NCBI GenBank assembly: GCA_944372195.1
Contig: CALVYK010000002.1
Span: forward strand, 4,422-68,421
Length of the DNA stretch: 64,000 bases
Direction: 5' to 3'
Source: an uncultured Bacilli bacterium
GTDB lineage: Bacteria > Bacillota_I > Bacilli_A > RF39 > UBA660
Shown: in pieces, positions 6,996 through 33,014 of the stretch
Layout: each line of letters starts with the position of its first letter
How positions within the stretch are numbered: position 1 is the first letter of the stretch
The notes under the pieces: model-generated
Seen by the model: only the letters and a program-made list of their open reading frames with translations
The model's database searches: none
Told to the model about the DNA's origin: nothing
Made by a program: the position numbers and the translations under genes

Positions 6996-7106
6996 AATAC
7001 AATAAATTTGTATTTTTTTTATATTTTCGACACAATTTGACATAATTCGACATACCAGTTGTGATATAAGAGATTAGCCAATTAATTTGGCTAGAGGGGG
7101 TGTTTT

Positions 7107-7583: not shown

Positions 7584-7690
7584 ATGCTTTTTTAACGCTA
7601 TTTTATGATATAATATATATATGAGTATGGGTGTACATAAATACATAAAATACGAAAATTTGGACATTTATTAAAAAAAGAGGTGACTTT

Positions 7691-10725
<3,035 letters not shown>

Positions 10726-10737
10726 GAGGTGAAATAA

Positions 10738-13176: not shown

Positions 13177-13190
13177 TTCTTCTTTTTTTA
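13164..13190 (+). terminator. gyrA intrinsic terminator
   Basis: 7-bp stem AGAAGAA / TTCTTCT with a 6-nt loop, then a T6 run. It overlaps the gyrA stop codon. Confidence 0.55.
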
Positions 13191-13348
13191 TTTAATAATT
13201 TAAAAATAATAAGATTTTCTAGTTTAATTTTAATAATTGTAACATTGACACATATATTTAAAATTAAATTTTTTTGCGTATTAAAGACATAACTTTCTTC
13301 TAATTTTAAAAATTGGAAATAAATTACTTAAGTTATTAAACAATTCAA

Positions 13349-21249: not shown

Positions 21250-21270
21250 GTATCCTTTTTGGAGGTTATT

Positions 21271-24200
21271 ATGATATTTAATAAACTATTTAATGATTAT
21301 AGTAATAACGATATTGGTGGATTAACTGATGAATTAAAATGTATATATATTGCTAATAACTTTAAAGAAAATACCTTAGTTGTATGCAATAGTCTATATG
21401 AAGCCAATAAATTTTATCAAACTTTAAAAAACTATGTAGATAATGTCTACTTTTTTCCGATGGATGATTTTATGACTAGTCAAGTACTAGCTATATCTCC
21501 TGATTTTAAAATGACTAGATTAGAAACATTAAATAATATTGATGATAAATGTATCGTTGTAACTAATTTAATGGGCTATTTAAGATTTTTACCTCCAAAA
21601 GATATATTTAAAAAAAGTTTTATCAAATTAAAAGTAAATGATGATATTAAAGATTTAGATCGTAAATTATATGATATTGGTTATGAAAAAGATACTATAA
21701 TTAATAAATCTGGTGATATGGCTGTAAGAGGTTATGTAATTGATGTATTTCCCATTAACTATGATAACCCAATAAGAATAGAATTTTGGGGTGATACCAT
21801 TGAATCAATTAGAAAATTTGATATCAATACCCAATTAACTATTGAAACAATTGATGAAGTTGATATAATACCTAATACTGAAGAATTATCTAGTGATTAT
21901 GTAGATATCTATAGTTATTTAAATGGTAAAGTTTATTATAATGAATTTGAAGATATTAAAACAGGTTATGAGCAATTGATGAATGAAGTATTAGAGTATG
22001 ATACTAGTAAAAAATATTTCTTTGATTTTAAAGAATATGATTCTATTAAACTATCAAATAATTATGGTGAATTTAATTATAATTCATTTAAAATAGAAGA
22101 TAGATTTAATAATATTAAAGATATTCTAAAATATAAAAATAAAACTATTGTTATATGTGTCTCAAATCGATATCAAGCTAATAAAATAATCGATGAAATA
22201 GATTGTGTATTTACTAATGTTAATCAAATATTTGAAAAAAAAATAAATGTTGTAATATTTAATATCAATGAAGGATTTATTTTTAATGATTATGTTTTTA
22301 TATCTGAAAATGAAATATTTAACAAGAAAAATTCTATTCCATATAAGACTAATTTTAAATATGGCACTAAAATAAAAGATATATCAAAACTAGAAATAGG
22401 AGATTACGTAGTTCATAATGTTCATGGTATAGGTAGATATTTAGGTCTTAAAACTATGAATAAAAATGGCTTAATTAAAGATTATTTACAAATAGAATAT
22501 AAAGATGGCGATAAATTATATATTCCTGTTGAAAAGATAGATTTAATTAGTAAATATGCGTCTAAAGATGGTTATATACCTAAAATAAACAAATTAGGTT
22601 CATCTGAATGGTCTAAAGTTAAAATGAGGGCTCGCGCTAAAGCCCATGATATTGCTCAAGAATTACTTAAAACATTCGCTTTAAGAGAAGTAAATAAAGG
22701 CTTTAAATTTAAAGAAGATGATGAGACTCAAATATTATTTGAAAAACAATTTCCATACCAAGAAACACCTGATCAATTAAAAGTATTAGATGAGATTAAA
22801 AAAGATATGGAAAGCAGTCATCCAATGGATCGATTGTTGTGTGGTGATGTTGGATATGGTAAAACAGAAATAGCTTTTAGAGCTGCTTTTAAAGCAATAT
22901 TATCTGGTAAACAAGTAGCTTTATTATGTCCTACTACAATACTTTCAAATCAGCACTTTCTTAATGCTTTAGATAGATTTAAAGAGTTTCCTGTTAATAT
23001 AAGATTGATTAATCGTTTTACTACACCTAAAGTATATAAAGATACATTGTTAAAACTCCAAGAAGGTTCTATAGATTTTGTAATTGGTACACATAGATTA
23101 TTAAATGATGAAATTAAATATAAAGACTTAGGATTATTGATAATAGATGAAGAACAACGCTTTGGCGTAACACATAAAGAGAAAATAAAAAAATTAAAAA
23201 CTAATATTGATGTTTTAACTTTATCTGCTACTCCAATACCTCGTACCTTACAAATGTCTTTATCTGGTATTAAGGGGTTATCAACTATTGAAACTCCGCC
23301 CTCTAATAGATATCCTGTTCAAACTTATGTCTTAAATTACAATACTAAAATAATTAAAGACGCTATTTATAAAGAATTATCTAGATCAGGTCAATGTTTT
23401 ATTTTATATAATCATGTTGATAGTATTGCTTCTAAGGCAAAAGAAATTCAAGATTTAGTAAAAGATGCTAAAGTAGTATATGCTCATGGCAGAATGAATA
23501 AAACTGATATCGAAGATATAATGCTTAAATTTATAAATAAAGAATATGATGTTTTAGTTTGTACAACTATTATCGAAACAGGAATAGATATACCTAATGT
23601 TAATACATTAATTATATTAGAAGCTGACAGATTAGGTTTATCTCAATTATATCAATTAAGAGGAAGAGTAGGTCGTACTAACAAAATAGCTTATTGTTAT
23701 TTAATGTATAGTAAAATATTATCCGAAATAGCAACTAAAAGATTAAATGCTATTAAAGAATTTACTGAATTAGGTAGTGGATTATCAATTGCTCGAAGAG
23801 ATTTGTCACTAAGAGGAGCAGGTGATTTCTTAGGAGATGAACAATCAGGATTTATTGATTCAATAGGTATAGAATTATTTACAGAGTTACTAAAACAAGA
23901 AATAGATAAATTAAAAGGAGTATATGTTAAAGAAGAAGAAGATACACAACCATTAATTGAAGTAGATACTTATATATCTGATTCTTATGTTAAAGAAATG
24001 GATTTAAAAATAGAAATACATAAAAAAATAAATGAAATAGATTCTTATGATAAATTGGTATCAGTTCAAAAAGAATTAGAAGACAGATTTGGTAAATTAG
24101 ATGATAAATTAATTATTTATATGTATCAAGAATGGTTTGAATCATTAGCTTCTAAATTAAATATCATAAGTATTAAACAAAATTCTAAAGAAATAGAATT

Positions 24201-24387
24201 AACTATTGATTCAAATATTGATGGTGAGAAATTATTCTTAGAAACATTTAAAATAAGTAATAATTTTAGATTTGGAACTCGCGGTAAAAATTTAATTATT
24301 ACTTTAAAATTACAAGGATTAGAAAAACATTTTATTTATTACTTAATTGATTTATTATTCGTAATTGAAAAAGCAAAAAAAGTATAA
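21271..24387 (+). CDS. mfd: Transcription-repair coupling factor Mfd
   Basis: CarD-like domain GDYVVHNVHGIGRY, plus DEAD/helicase motifs GDVGYGKTE and DEEQRFG. I chose the ATG at 21271, after the GGAGG RBS. Confidence 0.95.
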   Translation: MIFNKLFNDYSNNDIGGLTDELKCIYIANNFKENTLVVCNSLYEANKFYQTLKNYVDNVYFFPMDDFMTSQVLAISPDFKMTRLETLNNIDDKCIVVTNLMGYLRFLPPKDIFKKSFIKLKVNDDIKDLDRKLYDIGYEKDTIINKSGDMAVRGYVIDVFPINYDNPIRIEFWGDTIESIRKFDINTQLTIETIDEVDIIPNTEELSSDYVDIYSYLNGKVYYNEFEDIKTGYEQLMNEVLEYDTSKKYFFDFKEYDSIKLSNNYGEFNYNSFKIEDRFNNIKDILKYKNKTIVICVSNRYQANKIIDEIDCVFTNVNQIFEKKINVVIFNINEGFIFNDYVFISENEIFNKKNSIPYKTNFKYGTKIKDISKLEIGDYVVHNVHGIGRYLGLKTMNKNGLIKDYLQIEYKDGDKLYIPVEKIDLISKYASKDGYIPKINKLGSSEWSKVKMRARAKAHDIAQELLKTFALREVNKGFKFKEDDETQILFEKQFPYQETPDQLKVLDEIKKDMESSHPMDRLLCGDVGYGKTEIAFRAAFKAILSGKQVALLCPTTILSNQHFLNALDRFKEFPVNIRLINRFTTPKVYKDTLLKLQEGSIDFVIGTHRLLNDEIKYKDLGLLIIDEEQRFGVTHKEKIKKLKTNIDVLTLSATPIPRTLQMSLSGIKGLSTIETPPSNRYPVQTYVLNYNTKIIKDAIYKELSRSGQCFILYNHVDSIASKAKEIQDLVKDAKVVYAHGRMNKTDIEDIMLKFINKEYDVLVCTTIIETGIDIPNVNTLIILEADRLGLSQLYQLRGRVGRTNKIAYCYLMYSKILSEIATKRLNAIKEFTELGSGLSIARRDLSLRGAGDFLGDEQSGFIDSIGIELFTELLKQEIDKLKGVYVKEEEDTQPLIEVDTYISDSYVKEMDLKIEIHKKINEIDSYDKLVSVQKELEDRFGKLDDKLIIYMYQEWFESLASKLNIISIKQNSKEIELTIDSNIDGEKLFLETFKISNNFRFGTRGKNLIITLKLQGLEKHFIYYLIDLLFVIEKAKKV

Positions 24388-24404
24388 AACTTTAAAAAAT
24401 TTTC

Positions 24405-24414
24405 CGCGCGCGCG
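24405..24414. repeat. (CG)5 alternating tract
   Basis: CGCGCGCGCG embedded in otherwise pure A+T intergenic DNA, 12 bp upstream of the predicted -35 of the DGR target gene. Confidence 0.9.
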
Positions 24415-24425
24415 TAATTTAGGTC

Positions 24426-24454
24426 TTGCAATTAATAAAAAAATAATGTATAAT
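24426..24454 (+). promoter_or_regulatory. Predicted sigma-A-type promoter of the DGR target gene
   Basis: TTGCAA (24426-24431), a 17-nt spacer, then TATAAT (24449-24454) with TG immediately upstream. Confidence 0.5.
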
Positions 24455-24497
24455 TACATTAAGGTAGTAAAACTATCATAGTGGAAGGGAGAAATTT

Positions 24498-25961
24498 ATG
24501 AAAAATAAAAAGTTAGGTTTTACTTTAATTGAACTATTAGCAGTTATTATTATATTAGCTATAGTAGCACTTATAGCTACACCAATAATATTAAATGTAA
24601 TAGATGATGAAGAATGTGATGGAGAAGAAGTAGTACAAGGAGAAAGTTTAATTACAACATTATTAGAACAATATAAAGAAGGAAATCAAAAAGGATTAGT
24701 AAAAGATAGTACTAATGAAAATTTATATTATTATACTGGAACAAATGAAGAAGTAAGTAATAACTTTTTATGGTACGGAGGCCATCAATGGAGGGTATTG
24801 GAGTTTGATAAAGAAAAGAAAACATTAACATTGATAACCCAACAACCATTAACAGCAATTCAACCAGCAAGTACTGTATGGACAACTAAAGAAGAATATA
24901 ATTCAAGTTATATAAATGCATGGTTAAATGAATATTTTTGGAATAGTTTAGATAGTAGTATTCAAAATAATATATTAAAGAGTACATTTAATGTAGGAAT
25001 ATATACAGATGTAGATGAAATTACAACAACTCAAAGAGTAGGATTATTAGATGAAGACCAATATAAAAGAGCAGGTGATGGAACAACTGGGAAAGATTCC
25101 TATTTAGATATAAAAGATTATTTTTGGTTAGGTAATAGATATAGTTCGTCTTACGTTTGCCGCGTCCACAGCCTTGGCGCCCTCAGCTACAGTATTCCTT
25201 CGAATGCGTACGGCGTTCGTGCAGTTATAAAAATTTCTGATATAACCATCACCGAAGGTAATGATGGTACTCTTGCGAGCAATTATCAAGTAGCAAATAA
25301 AGCAACGAATACTAGTAATGTACAAGTAGGAGAATATATAAATGTACCATATAGTGGAAGTGATAGTGCTTGCGGAAGTGATAATATGTGCACATTTAGA
25401 GTAGTAAGTAAAGATGAAGATAGTATAAAAGCAGTACTAAATGGATTACTTCCAACAACAAGTAAATATGGAAGTTCAACGACAATAAGTACGGGTCATA
25501 CAATATATCGCCCACTGAATACATTTGTCGAAGGAATAAGTGATATGTATCGATATACAGGAAATAAAACATTCTATATAGGAGATTATCCATATGTATC
25601 AGGAACAGGTCAAGATTATAAAGTAGTACAAGATGAAACATTAGAAGCAAGTATTGGATTACCAACAATAGGAGAGATGTTCAGTGGAAATGATATTGAT
25701 ATGGTATATCCTGTTGATGCTGCAAAAACATTTGTAGATGTAAACACAATAGAAAATCCAACTGCATCAAGTTGGTATTGGACAATGAATAGATATAGTT
25801 CGTCTTTCGTTCGCGGCGTCCACAACGATGGCACCCTCATCTACATTAGTCCTTCGCTTGCGTTCGGCGTTCGTGCAGTTATATATCTGAAGTCAGGGAC
25901 TTCAGCCATAACCTTCACTGGAGGTGAAGGTACTCCAAATTCACCGTATGTATTATCATAG
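24498..25961 (+). CDS. DGR target protein: type IV pilin-like N-terminus followed by two tandem variable ligand-binding (C-type-lectin-like) modules
   Basis: The N-terminus KKLG/FTLIELLAVIIILAIVALIA is a prepilin cleavage/methylation signal. Two paralogous modules end in ...NRYSSS(Y/F)V(C/R)(R/G)VH..G.L.Y..PS.A(Y/F)GVRAVI, and both segments match the TR. Confidence 0.85.
   Translation: MKNKKLGFTLIELLAVIIILAIVALIATPIILNVIDDEECDGEEVVQGESLITTLLEQYKEGNQKGLVKDSTNENLYYYTGTNEEVSNNFLWYGGHQWRVLEFDKEKKTLTLITQQPLTAIQPASTVWTTKEEYNSSYINAWLNEYFWNSLDSSIQNNILKSTFNVGIYTDVDEITTTQRVGLLDEDQYKRAGDGTTGKDSYLDIKDYFWLGNRYSSSYVCRVHSLGALSYSIPSNAYGVRAVIKISDITITEGNDGTLASNYQVANKATNTSNVQVGEYINVPYSGSDSACGSDNMCTFRVVSKDEDSIKAVLNGLLPTTSKYGSSTTISTGHTIYRPLNTFVEGISDMYRYTGNKTFYIGDYPYVSGTGQDYKVVQDETLEASIGLPTIGEMFSGNDIDMVYPVDAAKTFVDVNTIENPTASSWYWTMNRYSSSFVRGVHNDGTLIYISPSLAFGVRAVIYLKSGTSAITFTGGEGTPNSPYVLS
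25139..25226 (+). other. DGR variable region 1 (VR1)
   Basis: 88-nt match to the TR. By hand count there are 22 mismatches, 15 of them at TR adenines. Confidence 0.85.
25793..25880 (+). other. DGR variable region 2 (VR2)
   Basis: 88-nt match to the TR. By hand count there are 21 mismatches, 16 of them at TR adenines. Confidence 0.85.
25887..25905 (+). promoter_or_regulatory. GC-containing hairpin just 3' of VR2 (candidate DGR target-recognition hairpin/cruciform)
   Basis: CTGAAGTC-AGG-GACTTCAG, an 8-bp perfect stem that starts 7 nt after the end of VR2. Confidence 0.5.
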
Positions 25962-26041
25962 AAATTTAATTATCATAGAAAAAAAAGAAACTCTTATAAA
26001 TAAAGGGTTTCTTTTTGACTTTTCTCTGATAACAATTATAA
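25951..26041. repeat. RIT left inverted repeat (IR-L)
   Basis: It is the reverse complement of 29189-29279. It contains two ATTATCATAGAA sub-repeats (25952, 25969) and a terminator-like hairpin AAGAAAC...GTTTCTT. It overlaps the last 11 nt of the target CDS, including the stop codon. Confidence 0.9.
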
Positions 26042-27010
26042 ATTTAATAGTTGGTTTAGTAAATTTTGATCTTCATTCCAATCTGGTAATTTATCATTAA
26101 ATTTTGGATTAACTTTTTCAATAGCTTCAAATTTTGATTTTTCAATCACTTTGGCATATTCCATTGTCGTAATAATAGAAGAATGACCAAGAAGCTCTTG
26201 TATATATACTATATTGACACCTTTATCTAATAAATGCACTGCTCTTGTATGTCTAAATGTATGTGGAGATATTTTTTTATTTAAATTATTAGTACTTTTT
26301 ATAACATCTCTTATAAAATCATTATTCATTCGTTTTCCATTTTTATTAAATAAATAACCATTTTCAATTTTATTTTCTTTAATATATTTAATTAATAAAG
26401 TTTTAGTTTGTTCCATTATAGATACAACTCTTTGTTTGTTACATTTTCCTGTCAAAATAATATACTTGTTTTCTAAATGAATATCATCTATTTTTAAATT
26501 AATAATTTCACTAGCTCTTGCAGCTGTGTCATAAAGAATTGTGAGTAATGTTAAATTTCTTCTACCTTTATTAGTAGACGTATCAATATTATCAAAAAGA
26601 TTTTTTAATTCATCTTCTCTTAGATAAAGAATTACTTTCTTTACTTCTCTTTTTGCTTTAATTGATAATATCTTTCTTATATTATCAATATTATCTATTT
26701 CATCTACTGCACAATATTGGTAAAAAGATTTTATACTTGCCAATCTTTGATTTCTAGTTCTAATACTGTTTTTTTTATTATTTTCTAAATAACTTAAAAA
26801 TTCCAAAATTATTTCTCTAGTTACATTTTCAAATGTGATATTTTTTATTTCGAATCCTTTAACATTGACTAAATATTCTATTAATATTTGAAAAGTTTTT
26901 TTATAGGAACGAATAGTGTGTAATGACATATTTCTTTCTATAATTAAATAATCTTTTAAAAATTTTGATAAATAATATGGAAAGTTTTTATTCATTTGTT
27001 TCACCAACAT
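26036..27010 (-). CDS. Tyrosine recombinase, RitC-like
   Basis: 324 aa with the phage-integrase catalytic signature ...HTFRHTRAVHLL...LLGHSSIITTMEY. Confidence 0.8.
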   Translation of the reverse strand: MLVKQMNKNFPYYLSKFLKDYLIIERNMSLHTIRSYKKTFQILIEYLVNVKGFEIKNITFENVTREIILEFLSYLENNKKNSIRTRNQRLASIKSFYQYCAVDEIDNIDNIRKILSIKAKREVKKVILYLREDELKNLFDNIDTSTNKGRRNLTLLTILYDTAARASEIINLKIDDIHLENKYIILTGKCNKQRVVSIMEQTKTLLIKYIKENKIENGYLFNKNGKRMNNDFIRDVIKSTNNLNKKISPHTFRHTRAVHLLDKGVNIVYIQELLGHSSIITTMEYAKVIEKSKFEAIEKVNPKFNDKLPDWNEDQNLLNQLLNL

Positions 27011-27947
27011 CTGGAATTAAATATCCTAGTTCCTTTTCAGATATATTATTAACTGTTTTTAGAATATCTTTGTTAATATGAAAATAATAAGAAACAGAAT
27101 CTATACTTTTATGACCTAATTGAACCTCTAGTATAGGCATAATTATATTAATATCTTTATCCAATTTTATATACTTATCAATATTATGAACGACAAAAGT
27201 GTGCCTCAAATCGTGTAATCTTGGCCCTTTATCAGTTATTTTTATATTTGATAAAATTAATACTTTTCTAAAATACTTTATAATACTATTTTTAGATGTT
27301 TTAAAAATATTTTCATTTGATTTATTATTACGAAAAAATTTAATGACGAAATAATTTATTTCTTTGTTTAAACCATCTGAAATAGCAACATATCTTTCTT
27401 CATTATTTTTTGAATTTCTAATTTTGAAGATAGATAAATTGAAATAATAATCTTTAATTTTAAGATTTAAAACTTCACCTATACGCATACCTGTCTGGTA
27501 AAGGATTTTAATTACTAAAGGATAAGCTATTTGTTTATAATAGTCGTAATGATAACTATTCAAAGGAATTTTTAAATTTAAATAAATTAATTTTATTTCT
27601 TTATATGAAAATATATAAGGTAAAAAATTGTTATGATTTTGTGGATATACTTTATTAGGTATTTGATAACAATCTATATTTTTTTGATATTTTAAATATT
27701 TACAAAATTCTCTAAATACGATCATATTTCTAGATATAGCATTTGAAGATAAATTAAGATTTAATCGTGCATAATTTTCGGTAACATCTTTTGTTATTTC
27801 GTTAACATTATTTTTTATTAAATATTGTTTAATTGCTTTAATAATTGTTTGTTCTGTTTTATATTTATAACCTAAAAATTGTTTAAATTGAATAAATTCA
27901 TCAAATATGATATTATAATCATACATTATTGTTCTACCTCCAAACAA
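26988..27947 (-). CDS. Tyrosine recombinase, RitB-like
   Basis: 319 aa with RLHDLRHTFVVH...LGHKSIDSVSYY. Confidence 0.8.
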   Translation of the reverse strand: MFGGRTIMYDYNIIFDEFIQFKQFLGYKYKTEQTIIKAIKQYLIKNNVNEITKDVTENYARLNLNLSSNAISRNMIVFREFCKYLKYQKNIDCYQIPNKVYPQNHNNFLPYIFSYKEIKLIYLNLKIPLNSYHYDYYKQIAYPLVIKILYQTGMRIGEVLNLKIKDYYFNLSIFKIRNSKNNEERYVAISDGLNKEINYFVIKFFRNNKSNENIFKTSKNSIIKYFRKVLILSNIKITDKGPRLHDLRHTFVVHNIDKYIKLDKDINIIMPILEVQLGHKSIDSVSYYFHINKDILKTVNNISEKELGYLIPDVGETNE

Positions 27948-29143
27948 ACTTTTTTTAAATTTTTTATATCAATTTTTAAATAAGTAGAAACTGTTGTATT
28001 TATGTTTGAGTGACCTAAGGTAGACGATATAATGGGTATGGGAATATTATTATCTAACATATTTGTAGCCAATGAATGTCTTAGATTATGTATTCCTTTT
28101 TTTGTATTTTTAACTTCAAAATCACATTTATCAAAATATTTATTAAAATCAGTAAAATAATTTAATTTTTCAAATGGATATTTCATCTTAACAAATAAAT
28201 ATTCATTTTTACATTTAGGTCTAGCTTTTCTTATATAATTAATAATTGCCCATCCAACTTCTTTTGACAAAGGTAATGTATTTAGATTATTTGTTTTGGG
28301 CTGAATAACATTTATTTTATAATTTTTCCAATCAATGTCTTTTAATTTGATATTTAAAATGTCACTTATTCTAAGTCCAAGTCTAGCAGCAATTAAAATA
28401 ATGGTATAACTTCTAATGTCTATATTTTTTTCTTTAGGGATACTTTCGAGTAATTTTTGAACTTCATCAACTTTTAAATATGTAGGTAATTTTCTTTTGT
28501 TTTTCCCATGTATTACAGGAATATAAACTGATAAATCTTCTAATAATATGTTTTCTATAAATAAATATTTTAGAAAATCTCTTAAAACATAAAAATTTTT
28601 TCTTTTAGATGTATTACCTTTTTCTACAATTTTATTTATAAATTTTGTTATATCTAATCTAGACAAATTTTCTATTTTATTAATACCATTTTGATAAAAA
28701 TAAGACAATAGATTAATTAGATAACTTTTTTTAATAAATAAACTACTATCAGAATTTTGTTTTATATTTTTTGCATAATCTAAATAATTATCTAAAATAA
28801 TGTTCCAATTATTAGGATAATTAGAATATAAAGCATTAGGTAAACTTCTCTTCAAAATAAAATTTTTATATGCATTAAAATCATCAAGAATCCTTTTGGA
28901 TCTCATTAATTGTTGATATCTCGATTTTGATTTGTTTGTATATTTATTTACATCAAAATTATAATAATCAAACAAAAAATTACAATAGTCTTGTTCATTA
29001 TAAATAAAATAATTCTCATTTTTCCAAATTATAAACTTCTTCCATATCTTTAGATAACCATCCATAGTTTTTATAGAATATCCAATTTCAAGTGCCTCCT
29101 TTCTAATGTTTTTAATATATGTTTTAAAATCTTGTGTATTCAT
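27926..29143 (-). CDS. Tyrosine recombinase, RitA-like (largest, first in the operon)
   Basis: 405 aa with GLRISD...HNLRHSLATNML...LGHSNINTTVSTY. An AAGGAG RBS lies upstream. Confidence 0.8.
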   Translation of the reverse strand: MNTQDFKTYIKNIRKEALEIGYSIKTMDGYLKIWKKFIIWKNENYFIYNEQDYCNFLFDYYNFDVNKYTNKSKSRYQQLMRSKRILDDFNAYKNFILKRSLPNALYSNYPNNWNIILDNYLDYAKNIKQNSDSSLFIKKSYLINLLSYFYQNGINKIENLSRLDITKFINKIVEKGNTSKRKNFYVLRDFLKYLFIENILLEDLSVYIPVIHGKNKRKLPTYLKVDEVQKLLESIPKEKNIDIRSYTIILIAARLGLRISDILNIKLKDIDWKNYKINVIQPKTNNLNTLPLSKEVGWAIINYIRKARPKCKNEYLFVKMKYPFEKLNYFTDFNKYFDKCDFEVKNTKKGIHNLRHSLATNMLDNNIPIPIISSTLGHSNINTTVSTYLKIDIKNLKKVCLEVEQ

Positions 29144-29188
29144 ATATACACGCTCCTTTTCTAGCTGACTCTATGCCAGCAGAAAATA

Positions 29189-29279
29189 TTATAATTGTTA
29201 TCAGAGAAAAGTCAAAAAGAAACCCTTTATTTATAAGAGTTTCTTTTTTTTCTATGATAATTAAAGTTCTATGATAATA
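29189..29279. repeat. RIT right inverted repeat (IR-R)
   Basis: It is the reverse complement of IR-L. TTCTATGATAAT sub-repeats lie at 29250 and 29267, with a third copy just outside at 29293. Confidence 0.9.
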
Positions 29280-29365
29280 TATATTATCAGAGTTCTATGA
29301 TAATATGTATTACAATAAGCAAATTTAGTAGGAATAATAGTAATGTATAAACGAAGAAAAGACAC

Positions 29366-29390
29366 ACCTTGCCGATGAAAATGGCAAGGT
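29366..29390 (+). other. GC-rich hairpin 24 nt upstream of the TR
   Basis: ACCTTGCC-GATGAAAAT-GGCAAGGT, an 8-bp stem. It may be part of the DGR RNA. Confidence 0.4.
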
Positions 29391-29413
29391 TAGGCAAATA
29401 TGGGTGTAAGGCT

Positions 29414-29501
29414 ATATAGTTCGTCTAACGTTCGCAACGTCAACAACAATGGCAACCTCAACAACAATAGTCCGTCGAACAGTAACGGCGTGCGTGCAGA
29501 T
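29414..29501 (+). other. DGR template repeat (TR)
   Basis: Adenine-rich. In the target frame it reads YSSSNVRNVNNNGNLNNNSPSNSNGVRA, with 11 AAC/AAT codons. It is not inside any ORF and is co-oriented with the VRs and the RT. Confidence 0.85.
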
Positions 29502-29679
29502 TCCTTTTAAACTGAGATTTATATGACTAAGGTTATGTAAAGAGAAGCACTGGGAAACAAGCCTTATTCCCTAGGTATAAATCCTAAAAATATTGGTGAT
29601 AGTACAACTAGAATAAAAGTGGTTTAGTAGAGTAAAATCGAAAAATCGCTTTTTCTTTTGTATTTTTTTGAATAAACAC

Positions 29680-29711
29680 TTGACAACGTGTGTGTGTGTG
29701 TGTGTGATAAT
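29680..29711 (+). promoter_or_regulatory. Predicted promoter of the MutS-like/avd/RT operon, with a (GT)9.5 microsatellite as its spacer
   Basis: TTGACA (29680-29685), a 20-nt spacer made almost entirely of GT repeats, then TGT-GATAAT (an extended -10, hexamer 29706-11). An AGGTGA RBS and the ATG at 29729 follow. Confidence 0.5.
29688..29706. repeat. (GT)9.5 dinucleotide microsatellite
   Basis: GTGTGTGTGTGTGTGTGTG read directly from the sequence. Confidence 0.95.
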
Positions 29712-29728
29712 ATTATCTAGGTGATGAT

Positions 29729-30139
29729 ATGAGATTAGTTGATTTAAGAAATGAATTAAAAGAAGATTATAAAGCTGCAGTTATATTTATGAGATATGGT
29801 AATTTTTATCGGGTATTTGATGATGATTGTTATATTATAGGTGGTTTATTAGGTTATAGAATATATGATAATAGAGTAGGATTTCCTATAACAGAATATA
29901 AAAAAGTAAAAAAAGTATTAGATAGAAATAATATTAGTTATATATTTTATAATATATGTGAAAGTATAAAAGAATTAAATAGTTATGATTTAGTATTGAA
30001 TTATTATAAAAATTATTTTTATAAAAAGGATTTGATGAATCTATTAATAGAACATGATGTTATAAATGAATTAGAAAAAATATTAATATTAATTGATAAA
30101 GATAGGTTAAATAACTTGAGGGAAAAGTATGAAAGATAA
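29729..30139 (+). CDS. DGR accessory protein with a MutS domain-I-like (mismatch-binding domain) N-terminus
   Basis: AVIFMRYGNFYRVFDDDCYIIGGLLGYRI...VGFPITEYKKVKKVLDRNNISY parallels MutS domain I (GDFYELFfeDA...L.itLT....aGvP.h....y...L...G..V). It overlaps avd by 11 nt. Confidence 0.55.
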   Translation: MRLVDLRNELKEDYKAAVIFMRYGNFYRVFDDDCYIIGGLLGYRIYDNRVGFPITEYKKVKKVLDRNNISYIFYNICESIKELNSYDLVLNYYKNYFYKKDLMNLLIEHDVINELEKILILIDKDRLNNLREKYER

Positions 30140-30470
30140 ATTTTATATAATAATTGAAGTTAAAAAAACTATTAATTATATAAATAAAATAATAGTTAAT
30201 TATCCTAAGGTAGAATATGTATTAAAAAATAATATTGAGTTAAGTAGTTATAAGTTATTAGAATATTGTTATAAAGCTAATATTTTAAAAGAAAATAGGT
30301 TAAATTATCAAAAGAAAATAATAATAATTATAAGGATGATTGATTATTATTTTTATTTAAGTTATTTAAATAAATTAATTAATAAAAACAAATATGAAAG
30401 TATTAGTAATTATTTATTAAATATAACTAAATATGTTTATGGGTGGATTAGAAGTGAAAAGGGTAAATAA
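30129..30470 (+). CDS. avd: DGR accessory variability determinant (Avd), four-helix-bundle family
   Basis: 113 aa, predicted helical. The C-terminus ITKYVYGWIRSEKGK resembles the bAvd C-terminus (ILGSWIARVNRK). It lies immediately upstream of the RT and overlaps it. Confidence 0.7.
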   Translation: MKDKFYIIIEVKKTINYINKIIVNYPKVEYVLKNNIELSSYKLLEYCYKANILKENRLNYQKKIIIIIRMIDYYFYLSYLNKLINKNKYESISNYLLNITKYVYGWIRSEKGK

Positions 30471-31428
30471 TTTATATAATCAATTATTTGATATTAATTT
30501 TATTTTAAATACTTATAATATTATTAAAAAGAATACAAAGAATAAAAATAAATTAGAAAAGTTTGAGGAAAATTTATCAATTAATTTAATTGATATTAAA
30601 GATAAAATAGGTAAGAATATCGATAAATATAATTTATTTATGATTTATGAACCTAAAGAAAGATTAATATTAAGTTTAAATTTGAAGGATAAAATTATTA
30701 ATCATATGGTTGGCTATATTTTATTTGATGTATTAGAAAAGAGTTTAATTGATAGTAATGTAGCTGTTAGAGTTAATAAAGGTACTAGTTATGGTATTAA
30801 GTTAGTTAAAAAATATATTAAGAATCTAAATTATAATTATTATTGTTTAAAGATTGATATTAAAAAGTATTTTTATAGTATTAATCATAATATTTTAAAA
30901 GATTTATTAAATAAAAAAATAAAGGATAAATTATTTTTAGATATTGTTTATAAAATAATTGATAGTACTGATAGTGATTATATATTTGAATATGCGAAAA
31001 AACATAACATTATTTTAAAAAAAGGATATGGATTAAGTATTGGTAATTTAACTAGTCAAATATTAGGTATATTTTATTTAAATAATTTAGATCATTATAT
31101 TAAAGAAGAATTAAAAATAAATTATTATATTAGATATATGGATGATATGGTATTATTTCATAAGGATAAAGAATATTTAAATTACTGTTTAGATAAAATT
31201 ACAATTTATTTAAAAGAATATGATTTAGAATTAAATAATAAAACAATTATAACTAAAAATAGTTTATGTTTTTTAGGTTATAGATTTTACAATAAAAAGA
31301 TTAAAATATTAAGTAAAAATAAAAGAAGAATATATAAAAAATTAAGAATATTAAAATATAAAGATTATAACAAATATATTAAATCATTAAGTAGTTATTA
31401 TGGTTATTTTAAAGTACAGAAGTATTAA
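30433..31428 (+). CDS. DGR reverse transcriptase
   Basis: RT motifs KIDIKKYFYSINH, GLSIGNLTSQ (the DGR-typical I/LGxxxSQ), YIRYMDDMVLF and FLGYRF. There is no maturase or endonuclease domain. The true start may be the GTG at about 30454. Confidence 0.9.
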   Translation: MFMGGLEVKRVNNLYNQLFDINFILNTYNIIKKNTKNKNKLEKFEENLSINLIDIKDKIGKNIDKYNLFMIYEPKERLILSLNLKDKIINHMVGYILFDVLEKSLIDSNVAVRVNKGTSYGIKLVKKYIKNLNYNYYCLKIDIKKYFYSINHNILKDLLNKKIKDKLFLDIVYKIIDSTDSDYIFEYAKKHNIILKKGYGLSIGNLTSQILGIFYLNNLDHYIKEELKINYYIRYMDDMVLFHKDKEYLNYCLDKITIYLKEYDLELNNKTIITKNSLCFLGYRFYNKKIKILSKNKRRIYKKLRILKYKDYNKYIKSLSSYYGYFKVQKY

Positions 31429-31901
31429 GAATTTTTAGATAATTCTATTTCCATTTGTTCTTTTATTTTATCTATATCTGTAAAAAACAAATTAATTCCT
31501 TTATCTTTCAATTTCATTAATTTTTTAAATTCTTTTAGTATTATTTTACTTAAGGTTTCAGGAACTTTAGCTGGTATATTATCTATAGTATGGATATGGT
31601 CAATATATTTTTCTAAAGTAGGAAAAGCATTTTGTAATAATATAGCGGTTTTTCTATCAAATATTTTTTCTATTAAAATAGTATTACAAAATCCATATCT
31701 TTTAATTTTATTATTTACTATTTTTTCATATTTTTCTACTTTACTGCTTAATGGAATAAACCATAATATATCTTTATCTTTGATGGTAAAATAAGTTGGT
31801 CTTTTTTTCCCTTTTTCATGATTAGCCATCAAGTTATCATCATTTACTGTGTCAAAAAATTCATCTTTTATGTGATATAAATATCCAGTTTTTATTTCCA
31901 T
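31425..31901 (-). CDS. Type III toxin-antitoxin toxin, ToxN/AbiQ-like endoribonuclease
   Basis: The 158-aa protein starts MEIKTGYLYHIKDEFFD...KKRPTYF...ILWFIPLSSKVEKY, which resembles the ToxN/AbiQ N-terminal core (FY.I...Y......RP....YF.APLSSPK.KH). Upstream lie a terminator and tandem structured repeats. I chose the ATG at 31899-31901 because of its GAGGAG RBS. Confidence 0.6.
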   Translation of the reverse strand: MEIKTGYLYHIKDEFFDTVNDDNLMANHEKGKKRPTYFTIKDKDILWFIPLSSKVEKYEKIVNNKIKRYGFCNTILIEKIFDRKTAILLQNAFPTLEKYIDHIHTIDNIPAKVPETLSKIILKEFKKLMKLKDKGINLFFTDIDKIKEQMEIELSKNS

Positions 31902-31944
31902 ATTTATCTCCTCTCTAATTAAGTATTTAAAATTATAGCACATA

Positions 31945-31980
31945 TAAAAAGAAAACTCTATCTATTAAGATAAAGTTTTC
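31945..31980 (-). terminator. Intrinsic terminator between the antitoxin repeats and the toxin gene
   Basis: The minus-strand RNA is GAAAACUUUAUCU-UAAU-AGAUAGAGUUUUC followed by UUUUUAU. This is the same position as the terminator in toxIN loci. Confidence 0.7.
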
Positions 31981-31987
31981 AAACATT

Positions 31988-32090
31988 TTCAACTAGGATA
32001 ATTTATTAATTCGCAAGCCACCTAGAAGCGAGAAACATTGTCGACCGGGATTATTTATTACTCGCAAACCACCCGGAAGCGAGAAACATT
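31988..32090 (-). ncRNA. Candidate type III antitoxin RNA: two full tandem repeats of 51-52 nt plus partial flanking copies
   Basis: The two repeats are about 80 percent identical and each begins AAUGUUUCUCGCUUC. The internal helix CCGGG/CCCGG in one copy is replaced by CUAGG/CCUAG in the other, which is a compensatory change. It nests with a CUCGC/GCGAG helix, so a pseudoknot is possible. Confidence 0.6.
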
Positions 32091-32106
32091 TTCTAAATGC
32101 AATATT

Positions 32107-32135
32107 AATATACATTATTTTAAAATATTTGTCAA
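32107..32135 (-). promoter_or_regulatory. Predicted promoter of the antitoxin-toxin transcript
   Basis: On the minus strand: TTGACA (32130-32135), a 17-nt spacer, then TATATT (32107-32112). Confidence 0.5.
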
Positions 32136-32208
32136 TATTGCACTTATATTATATGTAAAATTTAGTATATAATTTAATATATTGTTTAAACTAACTTTGA
32201 GGTGAACA

Positions 32209-32721
32209 ATGAAAACAGGAGTTATAAGAAGAATCGATGAGTTAGGAAGAATAGTTATACCTAAAGAAATAAGAAGAAGTTTAAGAATTAAAGAAGGAGA
32301 AAGTTTAGAAATATTAGTTGATAATGAAAATATTATTTTAAAAAAATATTCTTTAATTAAAAATTTAAATGATTTTGCTCAAAATATAACTGATTCGATT
32401 AAATCCTTTATTAAAAATAGTGTCTTAATATGTGATACTGATAGTATAATTGCCGTATCTGGTGATTTAAAAAAACAATTATTAAATAAAAAAATAGGTA
32501 GTGATTTAGAAGTTAAATTAAATAGAAGAGAAGAAATGCTAGAAAAACATAAAAAATTAATAAAAATAAGTGATGAAATGGAATGTTGCTATGCTGTTAG
32601 TCCTATTATCGTTAATAGTGATGTTATTGGTTTAGTAATGATCATAGGTGATGAAGTTGATGAAACTGATTTAAAGTTAACCCAAATAGTAGCTAGATTT
32701 TTAACTAATCATTTAGAATAA
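32209..32721 (+). CDS. spoVT: Stage V sporulation protein T (AbrB-type N-domain + GAF-like C-domain)
   Basis: MKTGVIRRIDELGRIVIPKEIRRSLRIKEGESLEI at the N-terminus, and 170 aa long. spoVT follows mfd in B. subtilis. Confidence 0.88.
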   Translation: MKTGVIRRIDELGRIVIPKEIRRSLRIKEGESLEILVDNENIILKKYSLIKNLNDFAQNITDSIKSFIKNSVLICDTDSIIAVSGDLKKQLLNKKIGSDLEVKLNRREEMLEKHKKLIKISDEMECCYAVSPIIVNSDVIGLVMIIGDEVDETDLKLTQIVARFLTNHLE

Positions 32722-32819
32722 ATGTAAAAATTGCGTAAAATGTCGTTATTTGAATATTAAAAATGTTGTTATATAACAAATATCTATGATATATTATTAA
32801 CATAGAAGGGAATATTACT

Positions 32820-32987
32820 ATGGAACAAAAATTAATAGATATTACGCCGTTGGCTTTATTATTTCTGCCAGTTATAATAGCTGTAATAAGCGTAATAATA
32901 GACTTTAATGTAGTAGATTTTGTTTATGTAGTATTAGTAGGTATTTTATTTTTAAGATATTTTATAGTAACAAGAAAACAAAATTAA
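32820..32987 (+). CDS. Small hydrophobic protein (55 aa)
   Basis: My hand translation is MEQKLIDITPLALLFLPVIIAVISVIIDFNVVDFVYVVLVGILFLRYFIVTRKQN. An AGAAGGGA RBS lies upstream. It is below the ORF-track cutoff. Confidence 0.35.
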   Translation: MEQKLIDITPLALLFLPVIIAVISVIIDFNVVDFVYVVLVGILFLRYFIVTRKQN

Positions 32988-33014
32988 TTTTTGTTTTTTT
33001 TAGGAGGTAAAGTA

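What the first reader, a model, noticed from the sequence alone, without database searches (positions are those of the whole stretch)
24405..31428. Complete diversity-generating retroelement (TR, two VRs, MutS-like ORF, Avd, RT)
An 88-nt template repeat (29414-29501) matches two segments of the upstream ORF: VR1 at 25139-25226 and VR2 at 25793-25880. By my hand alignment VR1 differs from the TR at 22 positions, 15 of them TR adenines. VR2 differs at 21 positions, 16 of them TR adenines. In the target frame the TR carries 11 AAC/AAT codons, and these are the codons that differ (AAC -> TAC/TTC, CGC/GGC, CAC, AGC, GCC/ACC, ATC). Downstream lie an Avd-like 113-aa ORF and an RT with YMDD and the DGR-typical IGNLTSQ motif. 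All parts are co-oriented. These GC-rich patches are conspicuous against the very AT-rich background.
Basis: partly seen in the sequence, partly recalled or inferred. Interest (0 to 1): 0.85.

Follow-up and report, generated by a model that had tools for sequence, protein, structure and literature searches.

The report
Pilin-targeting DGR split by mobile element
This is a genuine diversity-generating retroelement that rewrites two binding loops of a pilus-like surface protein in an uncultured gut bacterium, but this copy is split by a three-recombinase mobile element and shows no sign of recent use.

Summary
TR 29414-29501 matches VR1 25139-25226 (22 mismatches, 15 at TR adenines) and VR2 25793-25880 (21 mismatches, 16 at adenines). 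The TR has 11 AAY codons. The RT's closest solved relative is the Bordetella phage DGR RT. Avd-like and MutS-domain-I (MSL) genes precede it, which is the known "Architecture D".

The target is a type-IV-prepilin-like protein with two VR-bearing modules; module 1 is a DUF6273 domain.

It sits in the last codons of the target gene. Empty sites exist in sister metagenome contigs.

This lineage's DGR looks quiescent. Five non-A TR/VR mismatches are shared by both VRs. The VRs are identical in six assemblies, with or without the RIT. Sister lineages have purely A-site mismatches and VRs that differ between samples.

Also new:
- a structured TR RNA unit with its own terminator;
- a conserved, length-polymorphic (GT)n tract forming the spacer of the msl-avd-RT promoter.

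Verdict: a real DGR and a new member of a known kind, with unusual regulatory and mobile-element features worth follow-up.

The parts
24426..24454 (+). Promoter-like site upstream of the target gene (TTGCAA-17-TATAAT)
   Evidence: Consensus scan, 10 of 12 matches. Function is inferred only.
24498..25961 (+). DGR target gene, 487 aa. It has a prepilin-type N-terminal methylation motif (residues 3-27) followed by two VR-bearing modules; module 1 is DUF6273 (residues about 122-242).
   Evidence: Pfam N_methyl E 2.6e-7 and DUF6273; NCBIfam IV_pilin_GFxxxE. The family profile hits type IV pilins in the PDB (8pfb, E 1.4e-7). Module 1 model (pLDDT 74) matches phage DUF6273 proteins. The protein lacks about 85 aa of pilin head that most of 120 homologs have.
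25139..25224 (+). VR1
Evidence: Over 86 nt, 21 mismatches to the TR, 14 at TR adenines. It lies at the C-terminal end of DUF6273 module 1.
25793..25878 (+). VR2
   Evidence: Over 86 nt, 20 mismatches, 15 at TR adenines. Over 88 nt, 21 and 16.
25887..25905 (+). Hairpin 8 nt after VR2: CTGAAGTC-AGG-GACTTCAG, 8-bp stem and 3-nt loop
   Evidence: DNA fold -11.2 kcal/mol, z = -3.8, 0 of 200 shuffles fold as well. No comparable hairpin follows VR1 (z = -1.4).
25951..29306 (-). Inserted recombinase-in-trio (RIT) element. Genes: ritC 26036-27010, ritB 26988-27947, ritA 27926-29143. Inverted repeats: 25947-26041 and 29189-29283. Each arm holds an inward-facing terminator-like hairpin (25982-26016 on +, 29248-29214 on -).
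   Evidence: Three overlapping Phage_integrase ORFs. 95-nt inverted repeats, 98% complementary. Terminator-like hairpins. Empty site CCGTATGTATTA|CAATAA in L086, L087 and L003; TATGTA(TTA) flanks the insertion directly on both sides. The same element lies at target-gene 3' ends in L114, L115, L116 and L122, in both orientations.
29365..29391 (+). Conserved hairpin upstream of the TR (CACCTTGCC-N9-GGCAAGGTG)
   Evidence: Stem invariant in 9 loci. DNA fold z = -2.8.
29402..29413 (+). 5' strand of the long-range helix that closes the TR loop; it pairs with 29560-29571
   Evidence: 11 pairs, 100% paired in 9 sequences, 2 pairs with compensatory changes (AU to GC/CG).
29414..29499 (+). Template repeat (TR): 28 adenines, 11 AAY codons
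   Evidence: A substitution could give 2.2e15 amino-acid variants per VR and cannot create a stop codon.
29500..29669 (+). Conserved region 3' of the TR (spacer-like part of the TR RNA). It includes the 3' strand of the closing helix (29560-29571) and an intrinsic-terminator-like stem (29615-29625 with 29643-29653) followed by a T-run.
   Evidence: Highly conserved across relatives whose TRs differ. In the three tested helices together 99.6% of cells are paired, against 47-63% in slid controls; the terminator stem alone is 100% paired and has 2 compensatory pairs. No Rfam family matches.
29680..29711 (+). Promoter-like element of the msl-avd-RT operon: TTGACA, then AC(GT)9, then GATAAT. The (GT)9 tract is 29688-29705.
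   Evidence: Conserved in all relatives. (GT)n is 9 in most loci, 8 in L098 and L099, 10 in L090 and L007, 14 in L095, and 4 in the TR-less L011. The promoter role is inferred.
29729..30139 (+). msl: MutS-domain-I-like accessory gene, 136 aa, pI 7.65
   Evidence: Pfam MutS_I E 8e-5, 23.3 bits, above the 20.6 cutoff. Conserved next to avd and RT in relatives. It fits the MSL class of Wu et al. (PMC5758913).
30129..30470 (+). avd-like accessory gene, 113 aa, pI 9.63
   Evidence: Pfam bAvd E 6e-7 and NCBIfam DivGenRetAVD E 9e-10, both below their curated cutoffs. Its position overlaps the RT start; pI.
30433..31428 (+). DGR reverse transcriptase, 331 aa
   Evidence: Best PDB hit is bRT (8ub7), E 1.7e-25, against 2.7e-9 for the next RT (a group II intron-type RT). 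The alignment keeps KxRLI, IGxLTSQ and YMDD. Pfam RVT_1.

Best explanation
What it is. Window 24426-31428 holds a chromosomal diversity-generating retroelement of the Avd+MSL type. It lies between mfd and spoVT in an uncultured, very AT-rich gut Bacilli/'Tenericutes' lineage.

Inferred mechanism, by analogy with the Bordetella phage DGR:
1. A structured RNA of about 300 nt is made. It consists of an upstream hairpin, a TR loop closed by a long-range helix, a conserved 3' region and a terminator.
2. The msl-avd-RT operon is expressed from its own promoter, whose spacer is a (GT)9 tract.
3. The RT-Avd complex copies the TR into cDNA and misincorporates opposite adenines.
4. The cDNA replaces VR1 or VR2. 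The replacement is anchored at the shared GC-rich 3' boundary ...GGCGT(T/G)CGTGCAG. This randomises 11 AAY-templated codons in each VR.
5. Each VR sits in a module of a protein with a type IV prepilin N-terminus (module 1 is DUF6273, C-lectin-like). The protein is probably a pilus- or membrane-anchored adhesin.

State of this copy:
- A 3.36-kb recombinase-in-trio element has inserted into the last codons of the target gene. This changes the C-terminus from ..PYVLQ* to ..PYVLS*.
- The insertion places terminator-bearing inverted repeats between the target promoter and the TR.
- Independently of that insertion, this lineage's TR carries non-adenine differences from both VRs.
- The VRs are frozen across samples. 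The element therefore appears not to have homed recently, although all its genes are intact.
For: Shown directly:
- A-biased TR/VR mismatches and codon design.
- The RT is closest to bRT, with the DGR motifs.
- Avd-like and MutS_I-like genes, matching the published MSL/Architecture D class.
- The same cassette sits at the same mfd-spoVT site in 7 related GTDB MAGs.
- Relatives have near-pure A mismatches. L093, L103, L104 and L107 have 11-16 mismatches and 0 at non-A positions.
- Among 120 homologs, entropy peaks exactly at the 11 AAY-templated codons of both VRs.
- Sister strains L103 and L107 differ at 13 VR1 positions, all TR adenines, with 2 differences in 600 nt of flank.
- DUF6273 domain and prepilin motif. 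The literature reports DUF6273 as a C-lectin-like DGR target domain with the VR at its C-terminus (PMC10743442 and PMC11792537).
- RIT anatomy, empty site and flanking duplication.
- Terminator-like hairpins in the inverted repeats.
- TR RNA structure with compensatory pairs.

Evidence for quiescence:
- Five non-A mismatches are shared by both VRs.
- Outgroups indicate that the TR is the derived copy.
- VRs are identical in the window, L001, L003, L004, L086 and L087.
Against: - No experiment or read-level data: consensus assemblies cannot show minority VR variants.
- The compared strains are very close (0.1-1% divergence), so a low homing rate is not excluded.
- The Avd hits are below curated cutoffs.
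- The C-lectin fold was not recovered from solved structures: Foldseek against the PDB gave no hit with E < 1. The VR loop itself is modelled at low confidence.
- The hairpin expected after a VR is present only after VR2.
- The TR promoter is not identified, so the claim that the RIT blocks TR transcription is inference.
- The promoter role of TTGACA-(GT)9-GATAAT is inferred. Its 20-nt spacing is outside the range of the consensus scan.
Confidence: 0.85

Rival explanations
1. The DGR in this strain is fully active at a normal rate. The VRs look identical between samples only because one VR combination is strongly selected or because the samples share a recent clone.
For: All four genes are intact and the RT motifs are preserved. 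The TR keeps 28 adenines and 11 AAY codons. VR1 and VR2 differ from each other at A sites, so homing has occurred in the past. The compared strains are only 0.1-1% diverged.
Against: Five non-A mismatches are shared by both VRs; any homing event since the TR changed would have erased them. Sister lineages at similar divergence show 13 A-site differences between samples and 0 non-A mismatches. In this strain the RIT, with its terminator-like hairpins, separates the TR from the only recognisable upstream promoter.
Confidence: 0.12
2. The cassette is an irreversibly dead relic. The TR has drifted or been swapped by recombination so that it can no longer home. The intact ORFs only reflect recent inactivation.
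For: The TR and VRs disagree inside the GC-rich 3' boundary element (G against T at 29492) and at 29474, 29480, 29482 and 29483. The window TR matches, at non-A positions, the VRs of a different lineage (L116), which suggests module exchange. Decay does occur in this family: L011 has lost its TR, and L115 (RIT-bearing) has a non-cognate TR with 35 non-A mismatches.
Against: 80 of the 86 TR positions are compatible with VR1 or VR2 when only A changes are allowed. DGR homing in model systems tolerates some 5' heterology (my own knowledge, not tested here). msl, avd and RT have no frameshifts or stops. L092, a 94% identical lineage, carries the same TR with the matching T at the boundary position.
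Confidence: 0.2
3. Not a retroelement product. VR1 and VR2 are paralogous domain repeats, the 'TR' is a pseudogene fragment of the same domain, and the RT is unrelated (group II intron, retron or defence RT).
For: NCBIfam's best named hits for the RT are group II intron and retron models, all far below their cutoffs; no DGR-RT model was among the hits. VR1 and VR2 do lie in repeated modules of one protein.
Against: Mismatches are 8- to 13-fold enriched at TR adenines. The TR is non-coding and has A only at codon positions 1 and 2 of the VR frame. The RT hits bRT at E 1.7e-25, against 2.7e-9 for the next RT (a group II intron-type RT), and has IGxxxSQ. The cassette, with Avd and MSL, is conserved in dozens of related loci.
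Confidence: 0.02

Closest known systems
Bordetella phage BPP-1 DGR (bRT-Avd, TR, Mtd VR, IMH and hairpin)
   Same: The RT is the closest solved relative. A small basic Avd-like protein sits directly upstream of the RT and overlaps it. TR-to-VR differences are adenine-specific. The TR is built from AAY codons. TR and VR share a GC-rich 3' boundary. A GC-rich hairpin lies just downstream of VR2. The TR is embedded in a structured RNA with a conserved 3' region.
   Different: It is chromosomal, not phage-borne. Gene order is target-TR-msl-avd-RT, with the TR upstream of avd. It has an extra MutS-domain-I gene. There are two VRs in one gene. The target is a prepilin-like protein with a DUF6273 module, not Mtd. 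The TR RNA appears to have its own terminator and to be separate from the RT operon.
MSL-containing DGRs ('Architecture D' of Wu et al. 2018, NAR; PMC5758913), including the Legionella DGR
   Same: A small near-neutral MutS-like protein (136 aa, pI 7.65) occurs together with avd, with no HRDC gene. This fits the published description: 112-283 aa, pI 7.2 +/- 1.7, always with avd.
   Different: The host clade is uncultured gut Bacilli/'Tenericutes' MAGs. The target type and the (GT)n promoter tract are not described there. I did not place this RT on their tree.
DUF6273 (C-lectin-like) DGR targets of gut phages (tentaclins, PMC10743442; Faecalibacterium prophages, PMC11792537)
   Same: The VR maps to the C-terminal end of a DUF6273 domain. 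The model matches phage DUF6273 proteins at E 2e-5 and TM 0.4-0.47.
   Different: Here the domain is duplicated and fused to a type IV prepilin leader and alpha1-N helix in a cellular gene. It is not part of a phage tail or decoration protein.
Modular type IV pilins of Gram-positive bacteria, and Bacteroides type V pilus tip adhesins diversified by DGRs (bioRxiv 10.1101/2024.11.15.621889)
   Same: The concept is the same: an adhesive module carried on a pilin-type anchor, and in Bacteroides a module diversified by a DGR.
   Different: The pilus class differs: a type IV-like leader here, type V in Bacteroides. This window's protein lacks the pilin globular head that its homologs have. No pilus machinery was seen in the window. 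The resemblance to modular pilins rests on my own knowledge and was not tested.
Recombinase-in-trio (RIT) elements (Ricker et al. 2013; PMC10214605, PMC8138268)
   Same: Three adjacent, overlapping, co-oriented tyrosine recombinase genes of about 405, 319 and 324 aa, flanked by terminal inverted repeats, total about 3.4 kb.
   Different: The inverted repeats are 95 nt, against the 34 bp quoted for the archetype. Here the natural occupied and empty sites, a 6-9-nt flanking duplication, both orientations and a preferred target (the last codons ..PY[VT]L of surface-protein genes) are visible. The literature lists these properties as not tested.

Membership tests
Diversity-generating retroelement | Reverse transcriptase of the DGR clade (motif 4 [ILV]GxxxSQ, YxDD, closest to bRT) | tested here: met
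   phmmer against the PDB: 8ub7 bRT E 1.7e-25; the next RT, a group II intron-type RT, 2.7e-9. The alignment shows IGNLTSQ against IGSLTSQ and YMDD against YMDD. No RT phylogeny was built.
Diversity-generating retroelement | TR/VR pair whose differences are concentrated at TR adenines | tested here: met
   15 of 22 and 16 of 21 mismatches at A; Fisher p 1.3e-4 and 3.7e-6. However, 7 and 5 non-A mismatches remain, more than in relatives, which have 0-2.
Diversity-generating retroelement | TR adenines at codon positions 1 and 2 (AAY codons), with no stop codons reachable | tested here: met
   11 AAY codons. Adenines at positions 1, 2 and 3 number 14, 13 and 1. No stop is possible.
Diversity-generating retroelement | Accessory gene avd adjacent to the RT | tested here: inconclusive
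   bAvd E 6e-7 (30.4 bits, cutoff 40). DivGenRetAVD E 9e-10 (38.8 bits, cutoff 80). Size 113 aa, pI 9.63, and the position fits. No PDB sequence hit.
Diversity-generating retroelement | VR in a ligand-binding C-type-lectin-like (or Ig) fold near the domain's C-terminus | tested here: inconclusive
   DUF6273 match spans profile positions 22-166 of 172 and includes VR1. Foldseek hits phage DUF6273 proteins. No PDB hit with E < 1. The C-lectin similarity of DUF6273 comes from the literature. Module 2 has no Pfam hit.
Diversity-generating retroelement | 3' boundary element (IMH-like) and hairpin downstream of the VR | tested here: inconclusive
   TR and VRs share a GC-rich end, GGCGT(G/T)CGTGCAG, and then diverge. 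A strong hairpin follows VR2 only (z = -3.8; VR1 z = -1.4). There is one TR/VR mismatch inside the boundary element.
Diversity-generating retroelement | Ongoing diversification: A-site VR heterogeneity between or within populations | tested here: not met
   VRs are identical in the window, L001, L003, L004, L086 and L087. The test is met in sister lineages (L103 against L107: 13 of 13 differences at TR-A) and family-wide. Read-level data were not available.
MSL-type DGR (Architecture D, Wu et al. 2018) | Small MutS-like ORF in the cassette together with avd, no HRDC | tested here: met
   MutS_I 23.3 bits, above the 20.6 cutoff. 136 aa, pI 7.65. Conserved in relatives. L020's homolog has MutS_I E 8.7e-11. 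Definition.
Recombinase-in-trio (RIT) element | Three adjacent co-oriented tyrosine recombinase genes (about 400, 310 and 325 aa) flanked by terminal inverted repeats | tested here: met
   ORFs of 405, 319 and 324 aa that overlap, all Phage_integrase. 95-nt inverted repeats, 98% complementary.
Recombinase-in-trio (RIT) element | Assignment of the three proteins to the RitA, RitB and RitC subfamilies (two CB domains in RitA, extra C-terminal helix in RitC) | not tested
   Only size, order and a weak second SAM-like hit in the 405-aa protein. No phylogeny or structure was made.
Recombinase-in-trio (RIT) element | Mobility: presence/absence polymorphism with precise junctions | tested here: met
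   Empty site in L086, L087 and L003 against the occupied window. TATGTA(TTA) lies on both sides. The same element is found in other loci and in both orientations.
Type IV pilin / pseudopilin | Class III signal peptide with the G-F-T-L-I-E methylation motif and a hydrophobic alpha1-N helix | tested here: met
   N_methyl 30.3 bits (cutoff 21.2). TIGR02532 26.6 bits (cutoff 16.3). The family profile hits PilE1 8pfb at E 1.4e-7.
Type IV pilin / pseudopilin | Pilin alpha1-C helix and globular head; assembly by a T4P/Com machinery | tested here: not met
   The window protein lacks the roughly 85-aa segment (..DARISAG..NNYC..) present in most homologs and in the targets of L005-L011. No other prepilin motif occurs in the 64-kb window. 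The machinery was not searched genome-wide.
Simple-sequence-repeat phase-variable promoter | Repeat tract within the -35/-10 spacer, with length polymorphism among otherwise near-identical strains | tested here: met
   TTGACA-AC(GT)n-GATAAT. Within one Avd-identical lineage n is 8, 9 and 14; within the window's own lineage it is 9 and 10.
Simple-sequence-repeat phase-variable promoter | Repeat number changes transcription | not testable with these tools
   Needs reporter fusions or RNA data.

The most novel reading that the evidence does not exclude
Hypermutation in this DGR family may be gated by two heritable, reversible DNA switches.

1. A conserved (GT)n microsatellite forms the spacer of the msl-avd-RT promoter. 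At n = 9 the spacing is 20 nt, which would be low or off. At n = 8 it is 18 nt, which would be on.

2. A RIT element recognises the last codons of the target gene (..PY[VT]L). It inserts, inverts or excises between the VR and the TR. Its terminator-bearing inverted repeats then uncouple the TR RNA from the target promoter, and the insertion site promotes exchange of target and TR-RT modules between strains.

If so, a mobile element and a contingency repeat would together decide when a cell is allowed to diversify its adhesin.
Probability: 0.15. Interest if true: 0.75.

Novelty: new member of a known kind. Interest (0 to 1): 0.5.

Why it matters
DGRs are the only known natural system of targeted protein hypermutation in bacteria, and how cells restrain them is poorly understood. 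This locus belongs to a large, vertically inherited DGR family in uncultured gut Bacilli, with more than 868 target homologs. The family diversifies a prepilin-anchored adhesin carrying two VR modules, which extends the idea of DGR-tuned pilus adhesins beyond Bacteroides type V pili.

The family offers natural contrasts that make regulation testable:
- active sister alleles against a frozen allele;
- RIT-occupied against empty sites;
- (GT)8, 9, 10 and 14 promoter variants.

It also gives what appears to be direct sequence evidence for RIT insertion-site choice, flanking duplication and inversion. The literature searched here lists these properties as untested.

Tried and rejected
- Full-length AlphaFold model of the target: pLDDT 46, unusable. 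Only the module-1 model (pLDDT 74) was used.
- Foldseek against the PDB: no hit with E < 1, so no direct C-lectin assignment.
- PDB sequence search with Avd: no hits.
- PDB sequence search with the target alone: only the pilin leader matched.
- Rfam scan of 24000-33000: only spurious miRNA-model hits on the RIT hairpins, and no family for the TR RNA or the antitoxin repeats.
- Metagenome pattern scan for the (GT)n promoter: only 2 loci, both with n = 9. Length variation had to come from exact-protein look-ups.
- Idea that the RIT is strictly DGR-specific: rejected. A 75%-identical RIT lineage sits next to htpG, uvrC, frr, two-component genes and another RIT. The more distant P0279-type RIT (62% identical) also lies next to no DGR genes. 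Several P0210-type insertions are nevertheless again at ..PY[VT]L gene ends.
- Idea that the RIT insertion caused the VR stasis: rejected. RIT-free L086 and L087 carry the same TR and VR2.
- Idea that the extra 26-nt segment at 29284-29306 is a DGR feature: rejected. It is a normal third terminal repeat of the RIT.
- Considered and rejected: group II intron, retron or defence-RT identity, and a simple domain duplication.

Full report
**1. The observation**

The repeat finder recovers one three-copy family: 25134-25229, 25788-25883 and 29409-29504.
- TR 29414-29501 against VR1 25139-25226: 22 mismatches, 15 at TR adenines. Of 29 adenines, 15 differ; of 59 other bases, 7 differ. Fisher p = 1.3e-4.
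- TR against VR2 25793-25880: 21 mismatches, 16 at adenines. Fisher p = 3.7e-6.

A pattern made of the shared bases occurs three times in the window and never in 100 shuffles.

In the target frame the TR reads YSSSNVRNVNNNGNLNNNSPSNSNGVRA, with 11 AAC/AAT codons. Its adenines fall 14, 13 and 1 on codon positions 1, 2 and 3. No stop codon can arise from A substitution, and about 2e15 peptides are reachable per VR. GC is 0.47-0.53 in these patches against 0.246 for the window.

Relatives show that homology ends at ...GTGCAG (TR 29499). After that point every TR continues ATTCC and every VR continues TTATA. The unit is therefore 86 nt, with 21 mismatches (14 at A) for VR1 and 20 (15 at A) for VR2.

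**2. The genes**

- The RT (30433-31428) hits the Bordetella phage DGR RT (8ub7) at E 1.7e-25. The next RT, a group II intron-type RT, scores 2.7e-9. The alignment keeps KxRLI, IGxLTSQ and YMDD. NCBIfam gave only far-sub-threshold group II and retron hits.
- The 113-aa ORF matches bAvd and DivGenRetAVD below their curated cutoffs. Its pI is 9.63.
- The 136-aa ORF matches MutS domain I above Pfam's cutoff. Its pI is 7.65. This is the MSL accessory class, Architecture D, of Wu et al. 2018: 16 of 372 DGRs, always with avd.
- The target (24498-25961, 487 aa) starts with a prepilin cleavage/methylation motif, KLGFTLIELL. A profile of its family hits solved type IV pilins (8pfb, E 1.4e-7).
- The module holding VR1 is a DUF6273 domain, with the VR at its C-terminal end. 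A domain model (pLDDT 74, pTM 0.75) matches phage DUF6273 proteins (E 2e-5, TM 0.4-0.47). It matches nothing in the PDB.
- Published work describes DUF6273 as a C-lectin-like DGR target domain of gut phages, with the VR at its C-terminus.

**3.

Between VR2 and the TR lie three overlapping minus-strand tyrosine recombinase genes of 405, 319 and 324 aa. They are bracketed by 95-nt inverted repeats that are 98% complementary (25947-26041 and 29189-29283). This is the anatomy of a recombinase-in-trio (RIT) element.

Metagenome contigs from the same species give the empty site...CCGTATGTATTA|CAATAAGC... in L086 and L087, and a diverged version in L003. In these contigs the target stop lies about 95 nt before the TR.

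In the window the element (about 25951-29306) is flanked on both sides by TATGTA(TTA). It replaces the last codon, so ..PYVLQ* becomes ..PYVLS*. Each inverted-repeat arm contains an inward-facing terminator-like hairpin.

Contigs carrying the identical RitC have five informative flanks, and all five are 3' ends of DGR target genes. Three are of the window type (window, L114, L116) and two are of a target family only 29% identical (L115, L122). Both orientations occur.

A 75%-identical RIT lineage sits in many unrelated contexts, so the family is not DGR-restricted. Even so, several of those insertions are again at ..PY[VT]L gene ends, with the element supplying 'S-stop'. A distant DGR (L020, RT 45% identical) has a divergent RIT inserted right after a TR-like AAC-rich stretch.

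**4. Family context**

A GTDB scan with the RT gave 80 loci. The seven closest (RT 73-79% identical) are uncultured gut Bacilli or 'Tenericutes' MAGs. They have the same order, target(2 VRs)-TR-msl-avd-RT. In those that extend far enough the cassette lies between mfd and spoVT. None carries a RIT.

Their targets also begin with a prepilin motif, but they include a pilin head of about 85-190 aa that the window protein lacks.

L008 shares 97% (Mfd) and 94% (SpoVT) identity with the window, yet only 29% in the target and 77% in the RT. The cassette therefore behaves as an allelic island.

The window-type target has more than 868 homologs. Over the best 120, column entropy peaks precisely at the 11 AAY-templated codons of both VRs.

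**5. Is this copy active?**

Relatives look canonical. L093, L103, L104 and L107 have 11-16 TR/VR mismatches, all at adenines. L103 and L107 share the same TR and differ at 2 of 600 flank positions, yet differ at 13 VR1 positions, all TR adenines.

The window lineage differs in three ways.

(a) Five non-A mismatches (TR 29474, 29480, 29482, 29483, 29492) are shared by VR1 and VR2.
- Outgroup TRs and VRs (…ACG/GCG AAY GGC…TTCGTGCAG) indicate that the TR is the changed copy, at least at 29482-29483 and 29492.
- At non-A positions the window TR matches the VRs of another lineage, L116. This suggests exchange of TR-RT modules.

(b) VR1 and VR2 are identical in the window, L001, L003 and L004, and VR2 is identical in L086 and L087. 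These contigs are 0.1-1% diverged elsewhere, and the set includes RIT-free alleles that carry the same TR.

(c) In this strain the RIT places terminator-like hairpins between the target promoter (24426-24454) and the TR. No conserved promoter lies directly upstream of the TR.

I conclude that the DGR has not homed since the TR changed. That state predates the RIT insertion. Whether the element can still work is open, because all its ORFs are intact.

**6. RNA and promoter anatomy**

These features are shown by comparison; their function is inferred.

Across nine loci the TR varies, but its flanks are conserved and fold consistently:
- an invariant hairpin at 29365-29391;
- an 11-bp long-range helix (29402-29413 with 29560-29571) that closes the TR into a loop, with two compensatory pairs;
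- a terminator-like stem (29615-29625 with 29643-29653) followed by a T-run, also with two compensatory pairs.

In this structure 99.6% of cells are paired, against 47-63% in slid controls. There are few independent lineages and the structure was derived from these same sequences, so the support is moderate. Rfam has no match.

Downstream, TTGACA-AC(GT)9-GATAAT (29680-29711) precedes msl. The tract is conserved in every relative, and TGTGt-GATAAT reads as an extended -10 element.

Tract lengths are as follows:
- n = 9 in most loci, giving a 20-nt spacer;
- n = 8 in L098 and L099;
- n = 10 in L090 (the window's own lineage) and in L007;
- n = 14 in L095;
- 7 plus GA in L010;
- n = 4 in L011, which has lost its TR.

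I found no paper in the held library linking DGRs with repeat-mediated promoter phase variation. That is absence of evidence only.

**7. Mechanism proposed**

The TR RNA is made, probably by read-through from the target promoter in RIT-free alleles. RT-Avd copies it with adenine-specific errors. The cDNA replaces VR1 or VR2 from the shared GC-rich 3' boundary; VR2 also has an 8-bp hairpin 8 nt downstream. MSL, a lone mismatch-binding-type domain, may bind the cDNA:VR heteroduplex, but this is inferred and untested.

The product is a membrane- or pilus-anchored protein whose two VR-bearing modules (module 1 is DUF6273) change ligand specificity.

Steps shown here: the parts, their conservation, the A-specific record of past events, and active diversification in sister lineages. 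Steps inferred: transcription units, priming, the MSL role, pilus incorporation, and the effects of (GT)n and the RIT.

**8. Comparison and novelty**

This is a member of the known Avd+MSL DGR class with a known target domain (DUF6273). Pilin-type VR-bearing domains are only 'scarcely represented' in surveys.

The unusual aspects are:
- a prepilin-anchored target with two VRs, in a large clade of uncultured gut Bacilli;
- a RIT nested between the VR and the TR, with natural empty sites, occupied sites and both orientations;
- a frozen allele next to active sister alleles;
- a conserved, polymorphic (GT)n tract in the RT operon promoter.

I rate it a new member of a known kind, interest 0.5.

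**9. Limits**

- No read-level data and no RT phylogeny.
- Avd scores are below curated cutoffs.
- The C-lectin fold rests on the literature about DUF6273, not on a structural hit here.
- Module 2 has no Pfam hit.
- Promoter and terminator calls are consensus matches.

Noticed in passing
window 31425-32135 (minus strand): A complete type III toxin-antitoxin locus lies next to the DGR. The CptIN-family toxin scores 157.7 bits against NCBIfam (cutoff 90). On the minus strand it is preceded by a strong promoter-like site (32135-32107), about 2.2 tandem 51-nt repeats (32109-32011; the likely RNA antitoxin) and a terminator-like hairpin (31980-31951). The toxin is also present in L008 but absent from L010, L011 and L093.
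   Followed up: partly
window 25951-29306; loci L114-L132: RIT insertion-site biology. There are occupied and empty site pairs. A 6-nt TATGTR/YACATA sequence flanks both sides. Insertions recur after ..PY[VT]L codons of surface-protein genes, with the element supplying TCA-TAG ('S-stop'). A 20-nt palindromic site, TTATCA-N8-TGATAA, is found on either the ritA or the ritC side, which suggests in-situ inversion. One contig (L125) holds two RITs in tandem. The literature lists RIT target specificity and empty sites as untested.
   Followed up: partly
L020:690-4202: In a distant DGR (RT 45% identical; GTDB CALVZA010000024) a divergent RIT (RitA 36%, RitC 49% identical; 92-nt inverted repeats) is inserted directly after an AAC-rich TR-like stretch, between msl and the avd-like ORF and RT. 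This is a second, independent case of a RIT inside a DGR cassette.
   Followed up: partly
window 29688-29705: A (GT)9 microsatellite forms the spacer between TTGACA and GATAAT upstream of msl-avd-RT. It is conserved across species and is length-polymorphic (8, 9, 10, 14) among near-identical strains. It is a candidate contingency (phase-variable) promoter.
   Followed up: partly
window 35479-35746: A cluster of 26 differences, including one indel, lies within about 270 nt between the window and contig L001. The two are otherwise identical over 21 kb. This is a local hypervariable or recombined patch that starts in an intergenic stretch and overlaps the start of the 163-aa ORF at 35501-35992.
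   Followed up: no
L008 against window 21259-32721: The backbone genes flanking the cassette are 94-97% identical (Mfd, SpoVT). The DGR target is only 29% identical, Avd 42% and the RT 77%. The whole cassette is therefore exchanged as an allelic island between near-identical chromosomes. L115 carries a TR that is not cognate to its VR2.
   Followed up: partly
window 1-13200: GC skew changes sign near 4 kb. It is followed by plus-strand ORFs of the sizes expected for dnaA, dnaN, recF, gyrB and gyrA. The window probably starts at the chromosomal replication origin, which confirms that the DGR is chromosomal and not on a phage or plasmid.
   Followed up: no
L096-L099 TR (for example L096:429-520): Within one Avd-identical lineage, TR alleles differ in their 3' third (AATACGAAT against GATGCGCTC), mostly at adenines. 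It looks as if the TR itself had been adenine-mutagenised or converted from a VR. This would remove variable codons from the template.
   Followed up: no
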